From sequence record MH816966: 64,000 nt of DNA. One strand, 5' to 3'. Below the pieces are notes generated by a model. It was not told where the DNA came from. It did not search any database and saw only the letters and a list, made by a program, of their open reading frames with translations. The translations under genes were made by a program, and so were the position numbers. Origin of the DNA: Escherichia phage FEC19. Of the stretch, positions 1 to 3,854 are shown one piece after another; the first letter of the stretch is position 1, and every line of letters starts with the position of its first letter.

Positions 1-2
1 CT

Positions 3-311
3 ATCGTTACTCGCTTTACCCTCGAAAACGCAACCGCCGAAGTCCAGGGCGTTACGCTTACTTACGGCGAAATTCTCGCGAAATTCTCCGGCGTTCGCTT
101 AGGCGAAGAAATTAACGACGCGACGGTAATCGAGCAACTCGCTGCTTCTCGCTTAGAGCGCGACGAAAACGGATTCTTCGAAGTCGATGCGGAATTAAAT
201 TTATGCGGTAAAACGGCGTTTATTAACGAGTTCGAACTCGCCGTTTTAGTCAATTACGATAGCAAAGCTTATGCCTTCGCCCTCGAATTAATCGAAGACG
301 ACGAAGAGTAA
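3..311 (+). CDS. hypothetical protein, 5'-truncated at window edge, acidic C-terminus
   Basis: Open frame from window start to TAA at 309-311; CG-rich codon style unlike the bulk of the window. Confidence 0.45.
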   Translation: MVTRFTLENATAEVQGVTLTYGEILAKFSGVRLGEEINDATVIEQLAASRLERDENGFFEVDAELNLCGKTAFINEFELAVLVNYDSKAYAFALELIEDDEE

Positions 312-391
312 GAGAGGATTTTTAGAGCGTCGTGCGCGGCGCTTTAATAAAATTCTTTCGCGCCTAGCGCCCTAACAAATAGGAGTTTATT

Positions 392-1018
392 ATGGTTAGC
401 TTAAATCGCTTTTCTACTAGCGGCGACGTTATCGCAACTAAGACCGCCGACCTCGTTGCATTTTATAATGCAAATTCCGGCTCTAAGCCGATTAAGAAAT
501 TTGCGGACCGGCGGACCGCCGAGACTCGCGTAATCGCGCTAATCGAGTCCTTAAACGCGCTCGATGAGCCGTCCAACGAATCGCCCATCCCCGACGCGAA
601 GTCGCGTGAGGAAGTGTCCAGCGATGTAAAAACGCATAAGGCGCGTGCGGTCGTTAAAAAGGCCGAGCCGACTCAGGAAGAACTCGACGCGATGACCGAC
701 GAAGAGTATGAAGCATTCGTTAAAAGCGGCCTAAACGATAGTGCAAATTGCGTAGTGCAAAATGGAACTCCTTCCCATCGCCGTTCGAATAGCGAAGGTA
801 TTGCAAAAAGTTGGGATAATAAGGAAGTGGCGCAAAAGCGTCTCACCCGTAACGGCGTCATGGTCGAGGGAGTAGGCGAGTTCAAATCGGTCCGCGTAGC
901 GTTCGCCGCGCTGGGATTACCGGATAGCAAGCACATTCGCTTCCGCATGAAACTTAAGGAAGCTGGACGCTTGAACTTTGAGTTCGGCAACAAGTCCTAC
1001 ACCTTCCAGATCATCTAA
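392..1018 (+). CDS. hypothetical protein
   Basis: 208-aa ORF with AGGAG RBS at 379-383; contains two ATAGTGCAAAT-type motif copies in frame. Confidence 0.5.
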   Translation: MVSLNRFSTSGDVIATKTADLVAFYNANSGSKPIKKFADRRTAETRVIALIESLNALDEPSNESPIPDAKSREEVSSDVKTHKARAVVKKAEPTQEELDAMTDEEYEAFVKSGLNDSANCVVQNGTPSHRRSNSEGIAKSWDNKEVAQKRLTRNGVMVEGVGEFKSVRVAFAALGLPDSKHIRFRMKLKEAGRLNFEFGNKSYTFQII

Positions 1019-1023
1019 TCGAA

Positions 1024-1046
1024 TGGCGGCCCTTCGGGGTCGCTTT
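1024..1046 (+). terminator. stem-loop (TTCG loop) followed by T-run, putative intrinsic terminator after ORF 392..1018
   Basis: ggcccttcggggtc hairpin then gcttttc. Confidence 0.45.
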
Positions 1047-1068
1047 TCATAGTGCAAATTGGTGGCTT

Positions 1069-1332
1069 ATGAATACGCTTATTCTTATCGCTACGTTGTC
1101 CATCGGAAGCGGTCGCACCTTATCCCTTTACGACCATAGTGCAAATTGCGTTTACCCAACGCGCGTTGCGGCGATAGTTAATAGTGCAAATCGAATGCTA
1201 TTCGAGACTTGTTGGCGGGTTGATAACGAGAAAGGACGCATCGTCTTAGGTTATAGTGCAAATCTGCTGGTGGAGTCGTTCGACTGGACGGCTGAAGGTC
1301 GTAAATTGTTACGTAAAGTGACTAAAAGATGA
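1069..1332 (+). CDS. questionable ORF overlapping the motif array (three in-frame copies encode H/N/Y-S-A-N)
   Basis: 87-aa ORF; the DNA-level identity of the repeats suggests the region may be non-coding. Confidence 0.2.
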   Translation: MNTLILIATLSIGSGRTLSLYDHSANCVYPTRVAAIVNSANRMLFETCWRVDNEKGRIVLGYSANLLVESFDWTAEGRKLLRKVTKR

Positions 1333-1391
1333 CTTATAATAATACACTTTCTAACGCGTTTATGGTTGCAACCTTCCCAGTCGTATTACCG

Positions 1392-1431
1392 ATGGCCCTA
1401 GAAGTGGAGAAAACGTGTTCTAGGGCCATTT
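1392..1431. terminator. perfect 10-bp inverted repeat hairpin (ggccctagaa / ttctagggcc) between converging units, T-run on plus side
   Basis: Inverted repeat read directly; followed by attttat. Confidence 0.5.
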
Positions 1432-1446
1432 TATAGTGCAAATTGG

Positions 1447-1920
1447 CTAGTGGCGGGAGAATTGCTCACCCTCTTTGGCCGCCTCTCCAAAATCCTTGTA
1501 GAAATCATCCATGGAACGGCCCATTTTACTATTGCCGTTTTCATCAATCATTGTGATGCCGTAGATGATATTCAGTTCACGAATGGCATTAAGCTTGGCT
1601 GACGCCGCGACTTCTGGATCACGCACAAGCTTCACTAAATTGTGGATGGAACTCTTTACGCTCCACAATTCTTTCAATGGCATCTCTTCCATACGCTTTT
1701 TGTAGCGCATCTTGTAGTACGGATTGCGCTGAGTGCAGAGGATTCGCTGGCCAGTGTAGTTATCGGTCGCAACCTCCATGCCAAATACTAGTGCAAAAGC
1801 TGCGCGCATGTCATGTCCCTGAATAACAAGGTCAATGAACTCATCGAATAACGCCTGATTATGCTCTGCAAATCGTGGGTCTTCAAAGTCTTCAGGCATT
1901 GCTACATAATCTTGACTCAT
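1447..1920 (-). CDS. hypothetical protein (start moved to internal Met MSQDYV)
   Basis: ORF 1447..2115 trimmed; sigma70-like promoter (TTGAAT / TGTATAAT) at ~1965-1995 lies inside the longer ORF. Confidence 0.5.
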   Translation of the reverse strand: MSQDYVAMPEDFEDPRFAEHNQALFDEFIDLVIQGHDMRAAFALVFGMEVATDNYTGQRILCTQRNPYYKMRYKKRMEEMPLKELWSVKSSIHNLVKLVRDPEVAASAKLNAIRELNIIYGITMIDENGNSKMGRSMDDFYKDFGEAAKEGEQFSRH

Positions 1921-2139
1921 AGTGCAAATCCCATAGTGCAAATTAATAGTGTGAATTATACAATGATTGAACATTATATTCAAGTGCAGATTGATGTTCA
2001 AATTGGCTGTAAACGTACATAAATCATAGTGCTGAATGAATATCGGACCGTGGTGCGTGGTGTACTGTTTGATACGTATAAAAGAAATCCATCCCTTTCG
2101 CCGCTTGTTATGCAAATCAATGACTTAGCCGCAGCTGGC

Positions 2140-2450
2140 TGGTTGAAGCGTATCATGACGTATCATCCGTATCGCCGCAAGTCTTTGTTTTTATTTATAT
2201 CTTACGGATAATACGTATAAATATAAGTTTAGTATAAGTATGAGGATGTAGAAAAAAATTAATTTAAATTAATTCAAAATGGAGTTAATTGTTTTTTTCA
2301 AAGTTGTATAAAGTATAGCGGCGACGCGTATCATCCGTATCATCCGTAAGATGTACCACTGAACCCAGTCGCGGCGCACCATAGAAGTGTGTGGAGTGAA
2401 CTACGGATAGGTCCAAATCTTACGTCATTATACGCTTAAATTCTATGCGT
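2140..2450. repeat. composite intergenic element copy 1: multiple TACGGATGA/TCATCCGTA 9-mers in both orientations, AT-rich palindromic core, GCGTATAATGACGTA box
   Basis: A ~45-bp block (ataaagtat.gcgg..acgcgtatcatccgtatcatccgtaagat) is near-identical to 54420-54468. Confidence 0.8.
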
Positions 2451-2720
2451 AAGGTTAGCCAGCTAACTATATCTCCTTTTTAATTTCAAGCGGCAATCCC
2501 AGAGACGGCGCAGCCTACAGGCCCACACACCACGGTACACGCCCCAAAACCTAGTGATTCCCTCTCCAATACCACAACACCACAGTACAATATTCTTCCA
2601 AATTCGCACACATATTCAAGACACAAAAATCACGTCACAATACTCACACCCCCACCATCCTCTAATAGATTTACACAAATCAATCGCTTTATCCGATAAT
2701 AAAGACTCACAAGCAACAAG

Positions 2721-2744
2721 CAAACAAAAAGGGCCAATCGGCCC
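2721..2744 (-). terminator. intrinsic terminator after gene 2763..3215
   Basis: gggccaatcggccc hairpin; minus strand reads hairpin then tttttgttt. Confidence 0.6.
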
Positions 2745-2762
2745 TCTTAACATTAATCACTA

Positions 2763-3215
2763 TTAAAATATAAAATTCTTCACTCCAAGCCTTTTAAATT
2801 CCTTCCTTATCATCATATTAAACTTCTTCAATTTAGTTTTATTCATCCTTAAAGGATTGTAAGTGAGTACCTCTTCTATTACTTCCTTACGCATCTTTGA
2901 GCGCATATTAGTTAAGTAATAATTCTTGAACATATTAATAAGGTGATTGGCTTCCAGCTTAAGCTCAATTACTTCTTCCGATTCATCAAGCTCAAGTAAT
3001 CCTTTTTGCGTAAGAATATCTCTTAATATATTCTGGCACTTCTTGCAATCACCTTTACCTAAAAGCGAATCGATATAATCGCCGCTGACGCGCTCATCAC
3101 CGAAATATGTTGCGCGACCGCAAAGGCTTTGCACTTCTCCTTCGTCAAAGTAATGCGCACGATGGCCCCACTTCGGTATGGCCCAACCAGCGGCGATAAG
3201 CTTGTTACCCATCAC
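2763..3215 (-). CDS. hypothetical early protein
   Basis: 150-aa ORF in tightly packed minus-strand operon. Confidence 0.5.
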   Translation of the reverse strand: MMGNKLIAAGWAIPKWGHRAHYFDEGEVQSLCGRATYFGDERVSGDYIDSLLGKGDCKKCQNILRDILTQKGLLELDESEEVIELKLEANHLINMFKNYYLTNMRSKMRKEVIEEVLTYNPLRMNKTKLKKFNMMIRKEFKRLGVKNFIF

Positions 3216-3637
3216 CCCTCCTTAACGACGCGATAAGCAATGATGTCGCTGCCCTTTAACGCGCCTATATGGCCCCAGTGAAGATGGTCAGAGAGTCTTG
3301 ACAGTACTTTATCTCCTCCATTGCGCAGCTTGTATTCAACCATCTTCCCAGGCACCGGATTATTGCCACCAAACCACACGGTCCACGCTTCCTCCTTCGG
3401 CGCATCAACGTCCACGCCTATAGTAGCAACAACGTCATGCAACTGCTTAACGAGCGCCGATGCATCACGGACCTGCGAGCGTAATGCAACCAACTCGCGT
3501 TGCGCTTCACTGTATTTCGCTTCCAGCGCGGCGTAGTCCTCATATGCAACAAAACGTCCTTCGTGACTTTCTGGAACAGGAGTGATGTCGAAATCTTCTG
3601 TCGCCACATCGTATGTCAGGTCATAACGTTGTATCAT
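3212..3637 (-). CDS. hypothetical early protein; C-terminal domain paralogous to 4841..5341
   Basis: Shared C-terminal W.GG.NPVPGK...IIAYRVV motif. Confidence 0.55.
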   Translation of the reverse strand: MIQRYDLTYDVATEDFDITPVPESHEGRFVAYEDYAALEAKYSEAQRELVALRSQVRDASALVKQLHDVVATIGVDVDAPKEEAWTVWFGGNNPVPGKMVEYKLRNGGDKVLSRLSDHLHWGHIGALKGSDIIAYRVVKEG

Positions 3638-3854
3638 TTAACTTCTCCAAAATTTCAATAGCGATTTGCGTTTGCTTCTCAAGAGCAAGACGCAACATGT
3701 CAATTTGCAAGTCACGATGGGCCAGTTCAGCAGCGATGTCCGCCTTGCTGTAAAGTCCTTCATGCGTCATGGCAAAGATGTGGCGCGTATAATAGCCGCC
3801 CTCGTCGAGTTGCTCGATGTCACGCTGCCCGACTGCGTATTGCTTATCGGTCAT
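3621..3854 (-). CDS. hypothetical early protein
   Basis: 77-aa ORF, operon packing. Confidence 0.4.
   Translation of the reverse strand: MTDKQYAVGQRDIEQLDEGGYYTRHIFAMTHEGLYSKADIAAELAHRDLQIDMLRLALEKQTQIAIEILEKLNDTTL

What the first reader, a model, noticed from the sequence alone, without database searches (positions are those of the whole stretch)
738..1945. Phased family of ATAGTGCAAAT 11-mers at the left end
At least nine same-orientation copies of (C)ATAGTGCAAAT(Y) occur in ~1.2 kb. Six of them (1049, 1136, 1181, 1253, 1433, 1919) start at positions congruent modulo 3, although several lie outside any ORF. In ORFs 392..1018 and 1069..1332 the motif is in frame and encodes S-A-N. The copy at 1919 overlaps the start codon of minus-strand gene 1447..1920 (ATTTGCACTATG on the minus strand). 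Exact DNA-level identity suggests a nucleic-acid signal (phage-specific promoter, operator, iteron, or packaging/partition site) rather than a protein repeat. The minus-strand form ends in CACTAT, loosely reminiscent of the 3' end of single-subunit RNAP promoters, but no such polymerase is in this window.
Basis: seen in the sequence. Interest (0 to 1): 0.75.

Follow-up and report, generated by a model that had tools for sequence, protein, structure and literature searches.

The report
Phage packaging-signal repeats near genome end
Ten same-direction copies of an 11-base DNA word surround the small-terminase gene just inside the fixed end of this E. coli phage genome, recur in distantly related phages whose DNA is otherwise unalignable, and are most likely the marks by which the phage's DNA-packaging enzyme recognises its own chromosome.

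Summary
ATAGTGCAAAT occurs 8 times exactly, and its core TAGTGCAAA 10 times. All copies are on the + strand within window 738-1943, and there are none elsewhere in 64 kb.

The window is a Wifcevirus, an E. coli myovirus with a 3.7-kb direct terminal repeat (DTR). The physical left genome end maps to window 2280, so the array lies 340-1540 bp inside the DTR.

The minus-strand gene 1447..1920 is the small terminase (TerS); its closest solved relative is Pseudomonas phage E217 TerS (PDB 7UXE, E=9e-33). The same core, TAGT[GA]C[GA][AG]A, forms co-oriented arrays of 8-16 copies around terS in Kylevirus phages and four metagenomic relatives, where TerS is only 40-68% identical. Relatives outside that TerS clade lack it.

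Copies sit in non-coding DNA, in sense coding DNA and in antisense coding DNA, so this is a DNA-level signal. ORF 1069..1332 is nevertheless a real gene. The mod-3 phasing is not significant.

Best reading (about 0.45): recognition sites for the ring-shaped TerS that mark the DTR for site-specific packaging. The three promoter-proximal copies would double as a terS operator.

Rivals are another regulator's operators, a Chi-like polar end signal, and iterons. A phage-RNAP promoter is not supported. Binding and function are untested.

The parts
738..748 (+). Exact motif copy inside ORF 392..1018 (codes D-S-A-N). It is paired with the variant at 752. The pair is absent in vB_Eco4M-7 and RCIP0319.
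752..762 (+). Variant copy GTAGTGCAAAA, with the 9-mer core intact.
1049..1059 (+). Exact copy in non-coding DNA, between a terminator (about 1026-1043) and the ATG of ORF 1069..1332. Identical in all 9 Wifcevirus genomes.
1136..1146 (+). Exact copy inside ORF87 (H-S-A-N-C). The homologous site in other genera is TAGTACGGA or TAGTACGGG, which codes S-T-D or S-T-G.
1181..1191 (+). Exact copy inside ORF87. It codes N-S-A-N, and N-S-A is invariant in the protein family.
1253..1263 (+). Exact copy inside ORF87. Five relatives carry an A-to-G variant (TAGTGCGAAT). It abuts the Chi site at 1266-1273.
1433..1443 (+). Exact copy in non-coding DNA, between the bidirectional terminator (about 1393-1428) and the terS stop codon.
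1788..1798 (+). Variant copy CTAGTGCAAAA, antisense within terS.
1919..1929 (+). Exact copy whose minus-strand form ATTTGCACTATG contains the terS start codon. Metagenomic relative L016 has the same arrangement.
1933..1943 (+). Exact copy in the terS 5' leader, 14 bp from the copy at 1919.
1946..1956 (+). Degenerate copy ATAGTGTGAAT overlapping the -10 hexamer of the proximal terS promoter.
1447..1920 (-). terS, the small terminase gene (157 aa). The short ATG start is favoured because the longer start annotated in WFH is ATA in this window.
1955..2001 (-). Two overlapping sigma-70-like promoters, TTGAAC-17-TATAAT and TTGAAT-17-TATAAT, directly upstream of the tandem motif copies.
1069..1332 (+). 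ORF87, a real gene encoding a small protein with a signal-peptide-like N-terminus and two invariant cysteines. It hosts three motif copies and is found only in array-bearing genomes.
392..1018 (+). ORF208 (phrog_4730, function unknown). It hosts the distal motif pair. Its conserved C-terminal domain is also present in array-less relatives.
2280..2280 (.). Left boundary of the direct terminal repeat, which is the physical left genome end. The DTR is window 2280 and below, and runs off the left edge of the window.

Best explanation
The array is a cis-acting DNA signal. It consists of at least 10 co-oriented sites with consensus R-TAGTGC-R-R-A-W-Y, spread over about 1.2 kb from the terS promoter through terS and ORF87 into the 3' part of ORF208. 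It starts 340 bp inside the physical left end, within the 3.7-kb direct terminal repeat.

Proposed mechanism: the ring-shaped small terminase, encoded in the middle of the array, binds these direct repeats. DNA would wrap or loop around one or more rings. The resulting nucleoprotein complex would mark the concatemer junction as phage DNA and give it polarity. The large terminase could then cut at the fixed DTR boundary and package a genome with exact ends. The three tandem copies between the -10 hexamer and the ATG of terS would act at the same time as an operator, giving negative autoregulation of terS.

Shown here: the array, its orientation, its position relative to the end and to terS, its cross-genus conservation, and the TerS identity of the gene.
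For: 1. Gene 1447..1920(-) is a small terminase. phmmer against the PDB hits E217 TerS (7UXE) at E=9e-33 over residues 3-147. Phage Mansfield's annotators independently called the identical protein TerS by HHpred.

2. The physical end maps to window 2280 by two independent determinations. WFH has an exact 3701-bp repeat at both record ends. Mansfield has a PhageTerm-predicted DTR opened at the same base. In WFH all 10 copies lie at 339-1542 of each DTR copy, with none in the unique 64 kb.

3. The same core forms co-oriented arrays, always antisense to terS and running from about 100 bp upstream of terS to about 900-1200 bp downstream. Copy numbers are Kyle 11, PA1 16, L016 8, L017 10, L018 12 and L040 8, where TerS is 40-68% identical and flanking DNA is unalignable. 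Across the whole Kyle genome there are 11 copies in 900 bp of each DTR copy and 3 in the remaining ~66 kb.

4. Flanking positions not used in the search are constrained. Position +10 is T or A in 68 of 68 instances, and position -1 is a purine in 59 of 68.

5. Array-bearing TerS proteins form one clade. Relatives outside it (E217, MTx, PCSE1, L027, L033, L036, L038) lack the array.

6. Pbunaviruses are reported as circularly permuted without fixed ends (PMC12345254), and E217 TerS bound no DNA in vitro (PMC9611059). The array-bearing Wifcevirus and Kylevirus have fixed ends.

7. Within 9 Wifcevirus genomes, motif columns in 1019-2000 vary less than other columns (3.4% against 11.5%, Fisher p=0.018).

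8. Tandem copies cover the terS promoter-to-ATG interval in this window, L016 and L018.

9. From established knowledge: pac/cos recognition sites typically lie in or next to terS (lambda cosB-Nu1, P22, SPP1, P1). Direct repeats are what a cyclically symmetric oligomer would read.
Against: - No binding data exist, and the only solved family member, E217 TerS, showed no DNA binding in vitro (PMC9611059).
- The array is 1.0-1.2 kb long with irregular spacing of 12-355 bp. This is far larger than known TerS recognition regions, which I recall as 100-300 bp.
- A more classical pac-like arrangement sits right at the cut site. CGTATCAT repeats lie on both sides of an ~80% AT stretch containing the boundary (window 2149-2173 and 2327-2350). 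That could be the real terminase site.
- Serratia phage MTx has a fixed DTR but no such array.
- The putative N-terminal DNA-binding region of TerS is variable within the array-bearing clade.
- In Kyle and PA1 no copy lies on the terS promoter, so the operator role is not universal.
- Chi clusters pointing at the left end hint that this end is the exposed, possibly first-injected and last-packaged end. That complicates a simple 'bind here, cut 340 bp away, package inward' model.
- Any lineage-restricted gene, ORF87 for example, shows the same phyletic pattern as TerS.
Confidence: 0.45

Rival explanations
1. The sites are operators for a different sequence-specific DNA-binding protein, either another DTR-encoded small protein or a host factor. 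That protein would regulate transcription of the terminal-repeat genes, for example by shutting off terS or the early genes. The sites would have no role in packaging.
For: Three copies lie between the -10 hexamer and the ATG of terS, directly downstream of two near-consensus sigma-70 promoters. L016 and L018 have the same layout. ORF208 has a conserved C-terminal domain with a faint NUMOD-like HTH signal (E=0.039, one member). Several DTR proteins have no known function.
Against: Only 3 of at least 10 copies are at a promoter. The others lie inside genes, after terminators or antisense, with no promoter-like context. Kyle and PA1 have full arrays but none on the terS promoter. The C-terminal domain of ORF208 is nearly invariant in E217, MTx and PCSE1, which lack the motif, so ORF208 is an unlikely reader. 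Asymmetric sites in uniform orientation over 1 kb are atypical for dimeric repressors.
Confidence: 0.2
2. The array is a polar signal read from the DNA end by a translocating machine. Candidates are a Chi-like sequence that modulates a helicase-nuclease (host RecBCD, possibly altered by the phage RecD-like protein), a recombination hotspot promoting DTR-DTR recombination and concatemer formation, or a signal controlling DNA entry.
For: All copies share one orientation relative to the physical end, in all seven array-bearing lineages examined. They lie on the same strand and in the same region as dense clusters of correctly oriented Chi sites: 9 in 1.7 kb in Kyle, 7 in PA1, 7 in L017 and 5 in L040. 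One abuts copy 1253 in the window. The phage encodes a RecD-like 'exonuclease V alpha' homologue (annotation).
Against: No known enterobacterial helicase-nuclease recognises this sequence. Tandem copies sitting exactly on the terS promoter and start codon are not explained. Several Chi-plus-motif composites are a single homologous site inside the TerS C-terminal 'HYPPA' codons, so they are not independent. Wifcevirus has only one Chi in the region, so the association is not obligatory.
Confidence: 0.12
3. The sites are iterons of a replication origin located in the terminal repeat and bound by a phage initiator.
For: The copies are direct repeats in one orientation, number about 10, and lie near a very AT-rich stretch (window 2181-2300, about 80% AT).
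Against: Spacing is irregular at 12-355 bp rather than the regular roughly 20-bp register of iterons. The sites are only 11-13 bp long. The replication genes (DnaE-like polymerase, helicases, primase) lie 40-60 kb away in WFH and Kyle. No initiator gene is adjacent. The AT-rich stretch is 240 bp or more from the nearest canonical copy and coincides with the packaging cut site.
Confidence: 0.07
4. The sites are promoters for a phage-specific RNA polymerase or sigma factor. This was the first reader's hint, based on the CACTAT resemblance to T7/SP6-type promoters.
For: The minus-strand form ATTTGCACTAT(G/A) shares ATTT...CACTAT with the SP6/T7 promoter ends. This comparison is from memory.
Against: No single-subunit RNAP is present. 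The only large unassigned ORF near the window end is a tail fibre (phrog_6921, E=1e-194, plus Peptidase_S74), and relatives' annotations list none. The motif is absent from the other 62 kb, so it precedes no other gene. Most copies would drive antisense transcription. The motif is 6 nt shorter than such promoters.
Confidence: 0.02
5. The repeats are a by-product of a repeated peptide or codon usage, or they arise by chance.
For: Four copies code S-A-N in frame. N-S-A at copy 1181 is invariant in the ORF87 protein family. TAGTACGGA at 1715 is explained by the TerS NPYY codons.
Against: Three exact copies are non-coding (1049, 1433, 1933), and two (1788, 1919) lie in or overlap terS on its antisense strand. 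In Kyle the copies fall in different reading frames. At homologous sites the peptide changes (SAN, STD, STG) while the DNA stays within TAGTRCRRA through transitions only. The expected chance count is far below what is observed.
Confidence: 0.01

Closest known systems
Lambda cosB (R1-R3 sites bound by small terminase gpNu1)
   Same: Repeated short recognition elements lie just inside the packaged end, immediately next to the small-terminase gene. They are read by the small terminase to position the large subunit for cutting at a fixed site.
   Different: cosB spans about 120 bp with 3 sites of mixed orientation plus IHF sites, and generates 12-nt cohesive ends. Here there are at least 10 co-oriented sites over 1.2 kb, embedded in three genes, in a phage with a 3.7-kb direct terminal repeat. 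TerS belongs to a different structural type (an E217-like decamer). Binding is untested.
SPP1/SF6 pac (pacL/pacR boxes bound by G1P) and P1 pac (hexamer repeats bound by PacA)
   Same: There are multiple short repeats in and around the 5' end of the terS gene, overlapping its promoter region, and they nucleate a TerS-DNA complex.
   Different: Those sites flank the cut within about 100-270 bp and serve headful packaging with permuted ends. Here the nearest canonical copy is 337 bp from the cut, the array extends mostly away from it, and the ends are exact. These comparisons are from memory and from review PMC9611059.
T7 SRL/SRR arrays of short repeats next to the terminal repeat
   Same: Arrays of imperfect short direct repeats lie close to the terminal repeat of a phage with exact DTRs, and are thought to act in concatemer processing.
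   Different: The T7 arrays are tight tandem heptamer-like repeats outside a 160-bp repeat and are unrelated in sequence. Here the copies are dispersed, lie inside a 3.7-kb repeat, and are centred on terS. This comparison is from memory.
Chi sites (GCTGGTGG) and other polar DNA signals
   Same: Orientation relative to a DNA end is strictly uniform. In relatives the array is physically interleaved with true Chi clusters on the same strand.
   Different: The sequence is different, no known reader exists, and there is tight local clustering on a promoter and start codon, which Chi does not show.
Iterons of plasmid and phage origins
   Same: Multiple direct repeats in one orientation.
   Different: The sites are shorter and irregularly spaced. 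No adjacent initiator gene is present, and the replication module is distant.

Membership tests
Small terminase (TerS), E217/Pbunavirus type - for gene 1447..1920(-) | Sequence homology to an experimentally solved TerS across the oligomerisation core | tested here: met
   phmmer against the PDB hits 7UXE (E217 TerS decamer) at E=9e-33, residues 3-147. The family alignment has 13 invariant columns.
Small terminase (TerS), E217/Pbunavirus type - for gene 1447..1920(-) | Ring oligomer, and required for packaging | not testable with these tools
   Inferred from homology only.
Terminase recognition site (pac/cos-type cis element) | Lies at or near the packaging cleavage site or physical genome end | tested here: met
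   The first canonical copy is 337 bp inside the DTR left boundary (window 2280). The whole array is inside the DTR. In Kyle it lies 579-1483 bp from the end.
Terminase recognition site (pac/cos-type cis element) | Genetically linked to terS and co-inherited with a TerS lineage | tested here: met
   The array spans terS in 7 of 7 lineages of one TerS clade and is absent in 7 of 7 lineages outside it.
Terminase recognition site (pac/cos-type cis element) | Specifically bound by TerS | not testable with these tools
The homologous E217 TerS bound no DNA in vitro (PMC9611059), although E217 lacks the motif.
Terminase recognition site (pac/cos-type cis element) | Required in cis for packaging or for generating the ends | not testable with these tools
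   Needs transduction or mutant-phage experiments.
Terminase recognition site (pac/cos-type cis element) | Compact size (about 100-300 bp) adjacent to the cut | tested here: not met
   The array spans about 1.2 kb with spacings of 14-355 bp. The CGTATCAT repeats at the boundary fit this feature better.
Transcriptional operator | Sites overlap or adjoin the promoter they control | tested here: inconclusive
   Met for copies 1919, 1933 and 1946 at the terS promoter. Not met for the other 7 or more copies, nor for Kyle and PA1.
Origin iterons | Regularly spaced repeats next to an AT-rich unwinding element and an initiator gene | tested here: not met
   Spacing is irregular. Replication genes are distant.
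Single-subunit RNAP promoter | A cognate RNAP is encoded, and the motif lies upstream of many genes | tested here: not met
   No RNAP is encoded. The motif is confined to 1.2 kb.
Chi-like polar signal | Uniform orientation with respect to the DNA end that the enzyme enters | tested here: met
   68 of 69 instances across six genomes are co-oriented, and they lie on the same strand as the Chi clusters.
Chi-like polar signal | Recognised by a translocating helicase-nuclease, with a change in its activity | not testable with these tools
   No candidate reader could be tested.
Protein-coding repeat | Copies confined to coding DNA in one frame, with conservation at the peptide level | tested here: not met
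   Non-coding and antisense copies exist. Frames differ in Kyle. The peptide varies while the DNA motif is kept.

The most novel reading that the evidence does not exclude
The array is not, or not only, a terminase loading site. It would be a phage-specific polar 'self' signal read from the exposed left DNA end, a Chi-like sequence. It would work alongside the true Chi clusters seen in Kylevirus to reprogram a helicase-nuclease, either host RecBCD or a hybrid with the phage RecD-like protein. The result would be that incoming or replicating phage DNA is spared and channelled into DTR-DTR recombination while host DNA is degraded.
Probability: 0.07. Interest if true: 0.9.

Novelty: new variant of a known kind. 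Interest (0 to 1): 0.55.

Why it matters
How small terminases recognise viral DNA is still unresolved. [quoted passage not shown] For the solved E217-type decamer, no DNA target is known at all.

This array gives a sharply defined candidate target for close relatives of that protein: a conserved 11-13-bp site, in tandem at 12-14-bp spacing and in dispersed copies. The phages concerned (Wifcevirus and Kylevirus) have exact terminal repeats, while the Pbunavirus branch is reported as permuted. That makes specific versus non-specific DNA recognition by one TerS fold directly testable. It also offers an entry point into how long direct terminal repeats are generated, which is poorly understood for any long-DTR phage.

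There is a practical side. Wifcevirus phages are being engineered and rebooted synthetically (PMC11074155). Recoding genes in the DTR without knowing about these sites could break packaging.

Tried and rejected
- Pfam, PHROGs and PDB sequence searches of all DTR proteins gave nothing except TerS.
- The second homologue search, for ORF208, returned only near-identical Wifcevirus proteins and gave no depth.
- ORF87 was modelled with AlphaFold2 (pLDDT 75, all-beta plus a C-terminal helix) to test it as a possible reader. The Foldseek search of the PDB found nothing significant, with a best E of 0.25.
- An Rfam scan of 1-3300 found only a sub-threshold chance hit.
- A literature search for the motif string returned only unrelated primers. 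The E217 terminase paper is not held. The vB_Eco4M-7 synthesis paper says nothing on termini.
- I looked for an equivalent array in E217, MTx, PCSE1, L027, L033 and L036 and found none. PCSE1 (AAATATCGS) and L037/L038 (ACTTGCGGA) have other repeats upstream of terS, and MTx has three 21-bp repeats downstream.
- Helical phasing of spacings was rejected: there is no 10.5-bp register.
- Resemblance to DnaA box, IHF, CytR and Tus sites was checked by eye and rejected, with at least 2-3 mismatches and no fit to the Kylevirus variants.
- Co-variation of the TerS N-terminal region with the motif is inconclusive. Only E10, R65 and A108 are clade-specific invariant residues.
Full report
**What the window is.** Megablast of the first 6 kb finds 27 Wifcevirus genomes at 89-96% identity. 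These are E. coli and Shigella myoviruses, ECML-117-like, of about 68 kb. The closest is vB_EcoM_WFH, and the window runs in reverse orientation to its record. WFH and WFC were published with a terminal repeat of 'about 3.7 kb' (PMC6563267).

**Where the genome end lies.**
- In the WFH record, gene 1 (202-834) recurs at 67784-68416, so positions 1-3701 repeat at 67583-71283.
- Motif positions in WFH and in the window sum to a constant: WFH x equals window 2281-x. WFH position 1, the physical left end, is therefore window 2280.
[quoted passage not shown] Its position 1 aligns to the same base, and its right boundary sequence is identical to WFH's.
- The window thus holds the inner 2280 bp of the repeat followed by unique sequence.

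**The observation.**
- ATAGTGCAAAT occurs exactly at 738, 1049, 1136, 1181, 1253, 1433, 1919 and 1933, all on the + strand. Allowing one mismatch, 9 matches are found against 1.78 expected, and 0 of 100 shuffles reach 9.
- The 9-mer TAGTGCAAA has 10 copies, adding 752 and 1788. All are + and none lie elsewhere on either strand of 64 kb.
- In WFH the same 10 positions occur in each repeat copy and nowhere in the unique 64 kb.
- Degenerate copies lie at 1946, 1983 and 2026. The copy at 2026 is canonical in vB_Eco4M-7.
- The mod-3 congruence of six copies is real, but P(at least 6 of 8 in one class)=0.059. Copies inside + strand ORFs must also avoid the frame that reads TAG. I give it no weight.

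**Anatomy.** On the minus strand, the WFH orientation, the order reading inward from the end is as follows.
1. About 120 bp of ~80% AT DNA containing the boundary, flanked by CGTATCAT repeats.
2. Two overlapping near-consensus sigma-70 promoters, TTGAAC-17-TATAAT and TTGAAT-17-TATAAT.
3. Three tandem motif copies at 13-14-bp spacing. The first overlaps the -10 hexamer and the last contains the ATG of gene 1447..1920.
4. That gene, with one internal copy at 1788.
5. A copy between its stop codon and a bidirectional terminator.
6. Three copies inside the convergent ORF87 (1069..1332).
7. One copy between ORF87's ATG and the upstream terminator.
8. A pair inside the 3' part of ORF208 (392..1018).

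The longer start annotated for gene 1 in WFH is ATA in this window.

**The central gene is the small terminase.** Pfam is silent. However, phmmer against PDB sequences hits chain 7UXE_A, 'Small terminase', at E=9e-33 over residues 3-147. 7UXE is the cryo-EM decamer of Pseudomonas phage E217 TerS (PMC9611059). Mansfield's annotators reached the same call by HHpred. tblastn finds the family in 357 phage records, mostly Pbunavirus.

**Cross-genus conservation is the strongest result.**
- Pantoea phages Kyle and PA1 (Kylevirus) share only a 74-86-bp stretch of alignable DNA with this region. They nevertheless carry 11 and 16 copies of TAGT[GA]C[GA][AG][AG], all in one orientation, within about 900 bp over and downstream of their terS.
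- Across the whole Kyle genome there are 11 copies in each 3603-bp DTR copy (record 587-1483) and 3 in the remaining ~66 kb. About 4.5 per strand would be expected over the whole genome.
- Four metagenomic contigs show the same pattern, always antisense to terS. L016 has 8 copies, L017 has 10 plus one stray, L018 has 12 and L040 has 8, with TerS 45-68% identical in L016-L018.
- Over 68 instances, positions outside the search pattern are constrained. Position +10 is T (52) or A (16) and never C or G. Position -1 is a purine in 59 of 68. Position +11 is T or C in 58 of 68. The site is therefore about 13 bp: R-TAGTGC-R-R-A-W-Y.
- The array always runs from about 100 bp upstream of the terS ATG to 900-1200 bp downstream.

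**It is a DNA-level signal laid over real genes.**
- Substitutions among nine Wifcevirus genomes fall by codon position as 3:3:28 in ORF87, 11:16:89 in ORF208 and 5:3:46 in terS. ORF87 has protein homologues at 26-58% identity in the other genera. All three are therefore genuine genes.
- At homologous ORF87 sites the peptide changes (S-A-N, S-T-D, S-T-G) while the DNA stays within the motif by purine-purine transitions only.
- In Kyle the copies sit in different reading frames.
- Motif columns between 1019 and 2000 are less variable than the rest (3 of 88 against 103 of 894, p=0.018).
- One 'copy', TAGTACGGA at 1715, is the TerS NPYY codons and also occurs in array-less E217. It is probably protein-driven.

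**Who lacks it.**
- E217, Serratia MTx, Salmonella PCSE1 and IMG/VR contigs L027, L033, L036 and L038 have TerS and ORF208 homologues but 0-1 copies.
- In a neighbour-joining tree, the seven array-bearing TerS proteins form one clade.
- ORF87 occurs only in array-bearing genomes, but it looks like a small exported protein. Its model matches no DNA-binding fold.
- Pbunaviruses are described as circularly permuted and terminally redundant (PMC12345254), and E217 TerS bound no DNA in vitro. Wifcevirus and Kylevirus have exact ends.

**Interpretation.** A conserved, asymmetric, co-oriented site family is centred on terS and sits just inside a fixed genome end. It is restricted to one TerS clade, and that clade makes exact termini. 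I think it most likely that these are TerS recognition sites.

Direct repeats are what a cyclic oligomer would read. The 12-14-bp tandem spacing at the promoter is roughly the arc per subunit of DNA wrapped on a ~10-mer ring, but that is my rough inference and was not computed. The promoter-proximal triplet would also repress terS.

I hold this at about 0.45, for these reasons:
- Nothing shows binding.
- The array is several-fold longer than any known recognition region.
- MTx makes a DTR without it.
- The CGTATCAT repeats flanking the AT-rich cut site look like a more classical pac site.
- Chi clusters aimed only at the left end suggest that end is the exposed, perhaps last-packaged, one.

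The rivals, in descending order, are operators of another protein, a Chi-like polar end signal, and iterons. A phage-RNAP promoter and a coding artefact are effectively excluded. No RNAP is encoded, since the 774-aa ORF at the window end is a tail fibre, and the motif precedes no other gene.

**Novelty.** No paper in the searchable library contains the motif, and none of the Wifcevirus papers read here mentions it. If it is a TerS site, it is a new and unusually extended variant of the pac/cos recognition principle. It would also be the first candidate DNA target for the E217-type small terminase family.

Noticed in passing
window 1266-1273; Kyle record 262-1979 (L019); L006 5857-7429; L017 323-1824; L040 2986-3989; L008 179-1276: There are dense clusters of the E. 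coli Chi sequence GCTGGTGG in the same part of the terminal repeat. All are oriented so that RecBCD entering at the left physical end would recognise them. Kyle has 9 in 1.7 kb against about 1 expected per strand per genome, PA1 has 7, L017 has 7, L040 has 5 and MTx has 4. None are oriented for the right end. The window has only one, abutting motif copy 1253. This suggests the left end is the RecBCD-exposed end, or that Chi drives DTR recombination.
   Followed up: partly
window 2149-2173 and 2327-2350, around 2181-2300: CGTATCAT(CCGTA) repeats lie on both sides of a ~120-bp stretch of about 80% AT that contains the DTR boundary at 2280. Three are inside the repeat and two outside. This is a classical pac-like geometry and a rival candidate for the terminase recognition or cleavage site. 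Related 'GCGGCAATACG...GATACG' strings precede terS in L016 and L018.
   Followed up: partly
outside the window: WFH record 3726-3745 and 3822-3838 (L002); Mansfield; Kyle record 3628-3647 (L019): A 20-mer, AATTT(G/C)(C/A)CAGTACACTAATCA, is conserved between genera 23-45 bp beyond the right boundary of the terminal repeat, in otherwise unalignable non-coding DNA. It reads like the 11-mer ATTTGC|ACTA split by 5 bp, in the same orientation as the array. It may mark the second cut site.
   Followed up: partly
window 1069-1332: ORF87 encodes a small protein with a signal-peptide-like N-terminus, two invariant cysteines and a CWR motif. It is found only in genomes that carry the motif array (7 of 7 against 0 of 7). 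The AF2 model (pLDDT 75) is all-beta plus a C-terminal helix and has no PDB fold match. Its function is unknown.
   Followed up: yes
window 1921-2115 (minus strand): The WFH record annotates terS with a 633-bp ORF starting 159 bp upstream. That ATG is ATA in this window, and the extension would run through the promoters and motif copies. It is probably an over-extended start call in MK373776.
   Followed up: yes
window 392-1018: In ORF208 (phrog_4730) the N- and C-terminal domains align in all eight relatives compared, out to Pbunavirus, Myosmarvirus and a Salmonella phage. The C-terminal domain, with the motif ...SVRxAFxxLGLPDSKHIRFRMKLK, is very strongly conserved. It gives a faint hit to the I-HmuI NUMOD-like domain (E=0.039, one member). 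It may be a DNA-binding protein of the terminal-repeat region.
   Followed up: partly
L009 386-715; L037 611-845 and L038 2060-2294; L008 965-1090: Other TerS lineages carry their own short repeat clusters next to terS. Salmonella phage PCSE1 has AAATATCGS seven times upstream. Two IMG/VR contigs have (G)AACTTGCGGA six to seven times upstream, on both strands. Serratia MTx has three copies of AAAAATAAGCATGCTTTGTAT, with a palindromic core, just downstream. This hints that lineage-specific terS-proximal repeats are a family trait.
   Followed up: partly
window 1921-2762: An 840-bp gene-free gap lies upstream of terS and is bisected by the DTR boundary. Its outer, unique half (2281-2760) is C/A-rich on the + strand and ends in a strong terminator-like hairpin (2727-2748, minus strand). 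No Rfam family matches.
   Followed up: no
TerS residues 10, 64-65 and 108 (window 1447-1920, minus strand): E10, R65 and A108 are invariant in the seven array-bearing TerS proteins and rare outside that clade. Just before the NPYY motif, E followed by S, A, N or H is the usual pair in array-less relatives, whereas the array-bearing clade has Q, K or R followed by R. This gained basic residue could contact DNA.
   Followed up: partly
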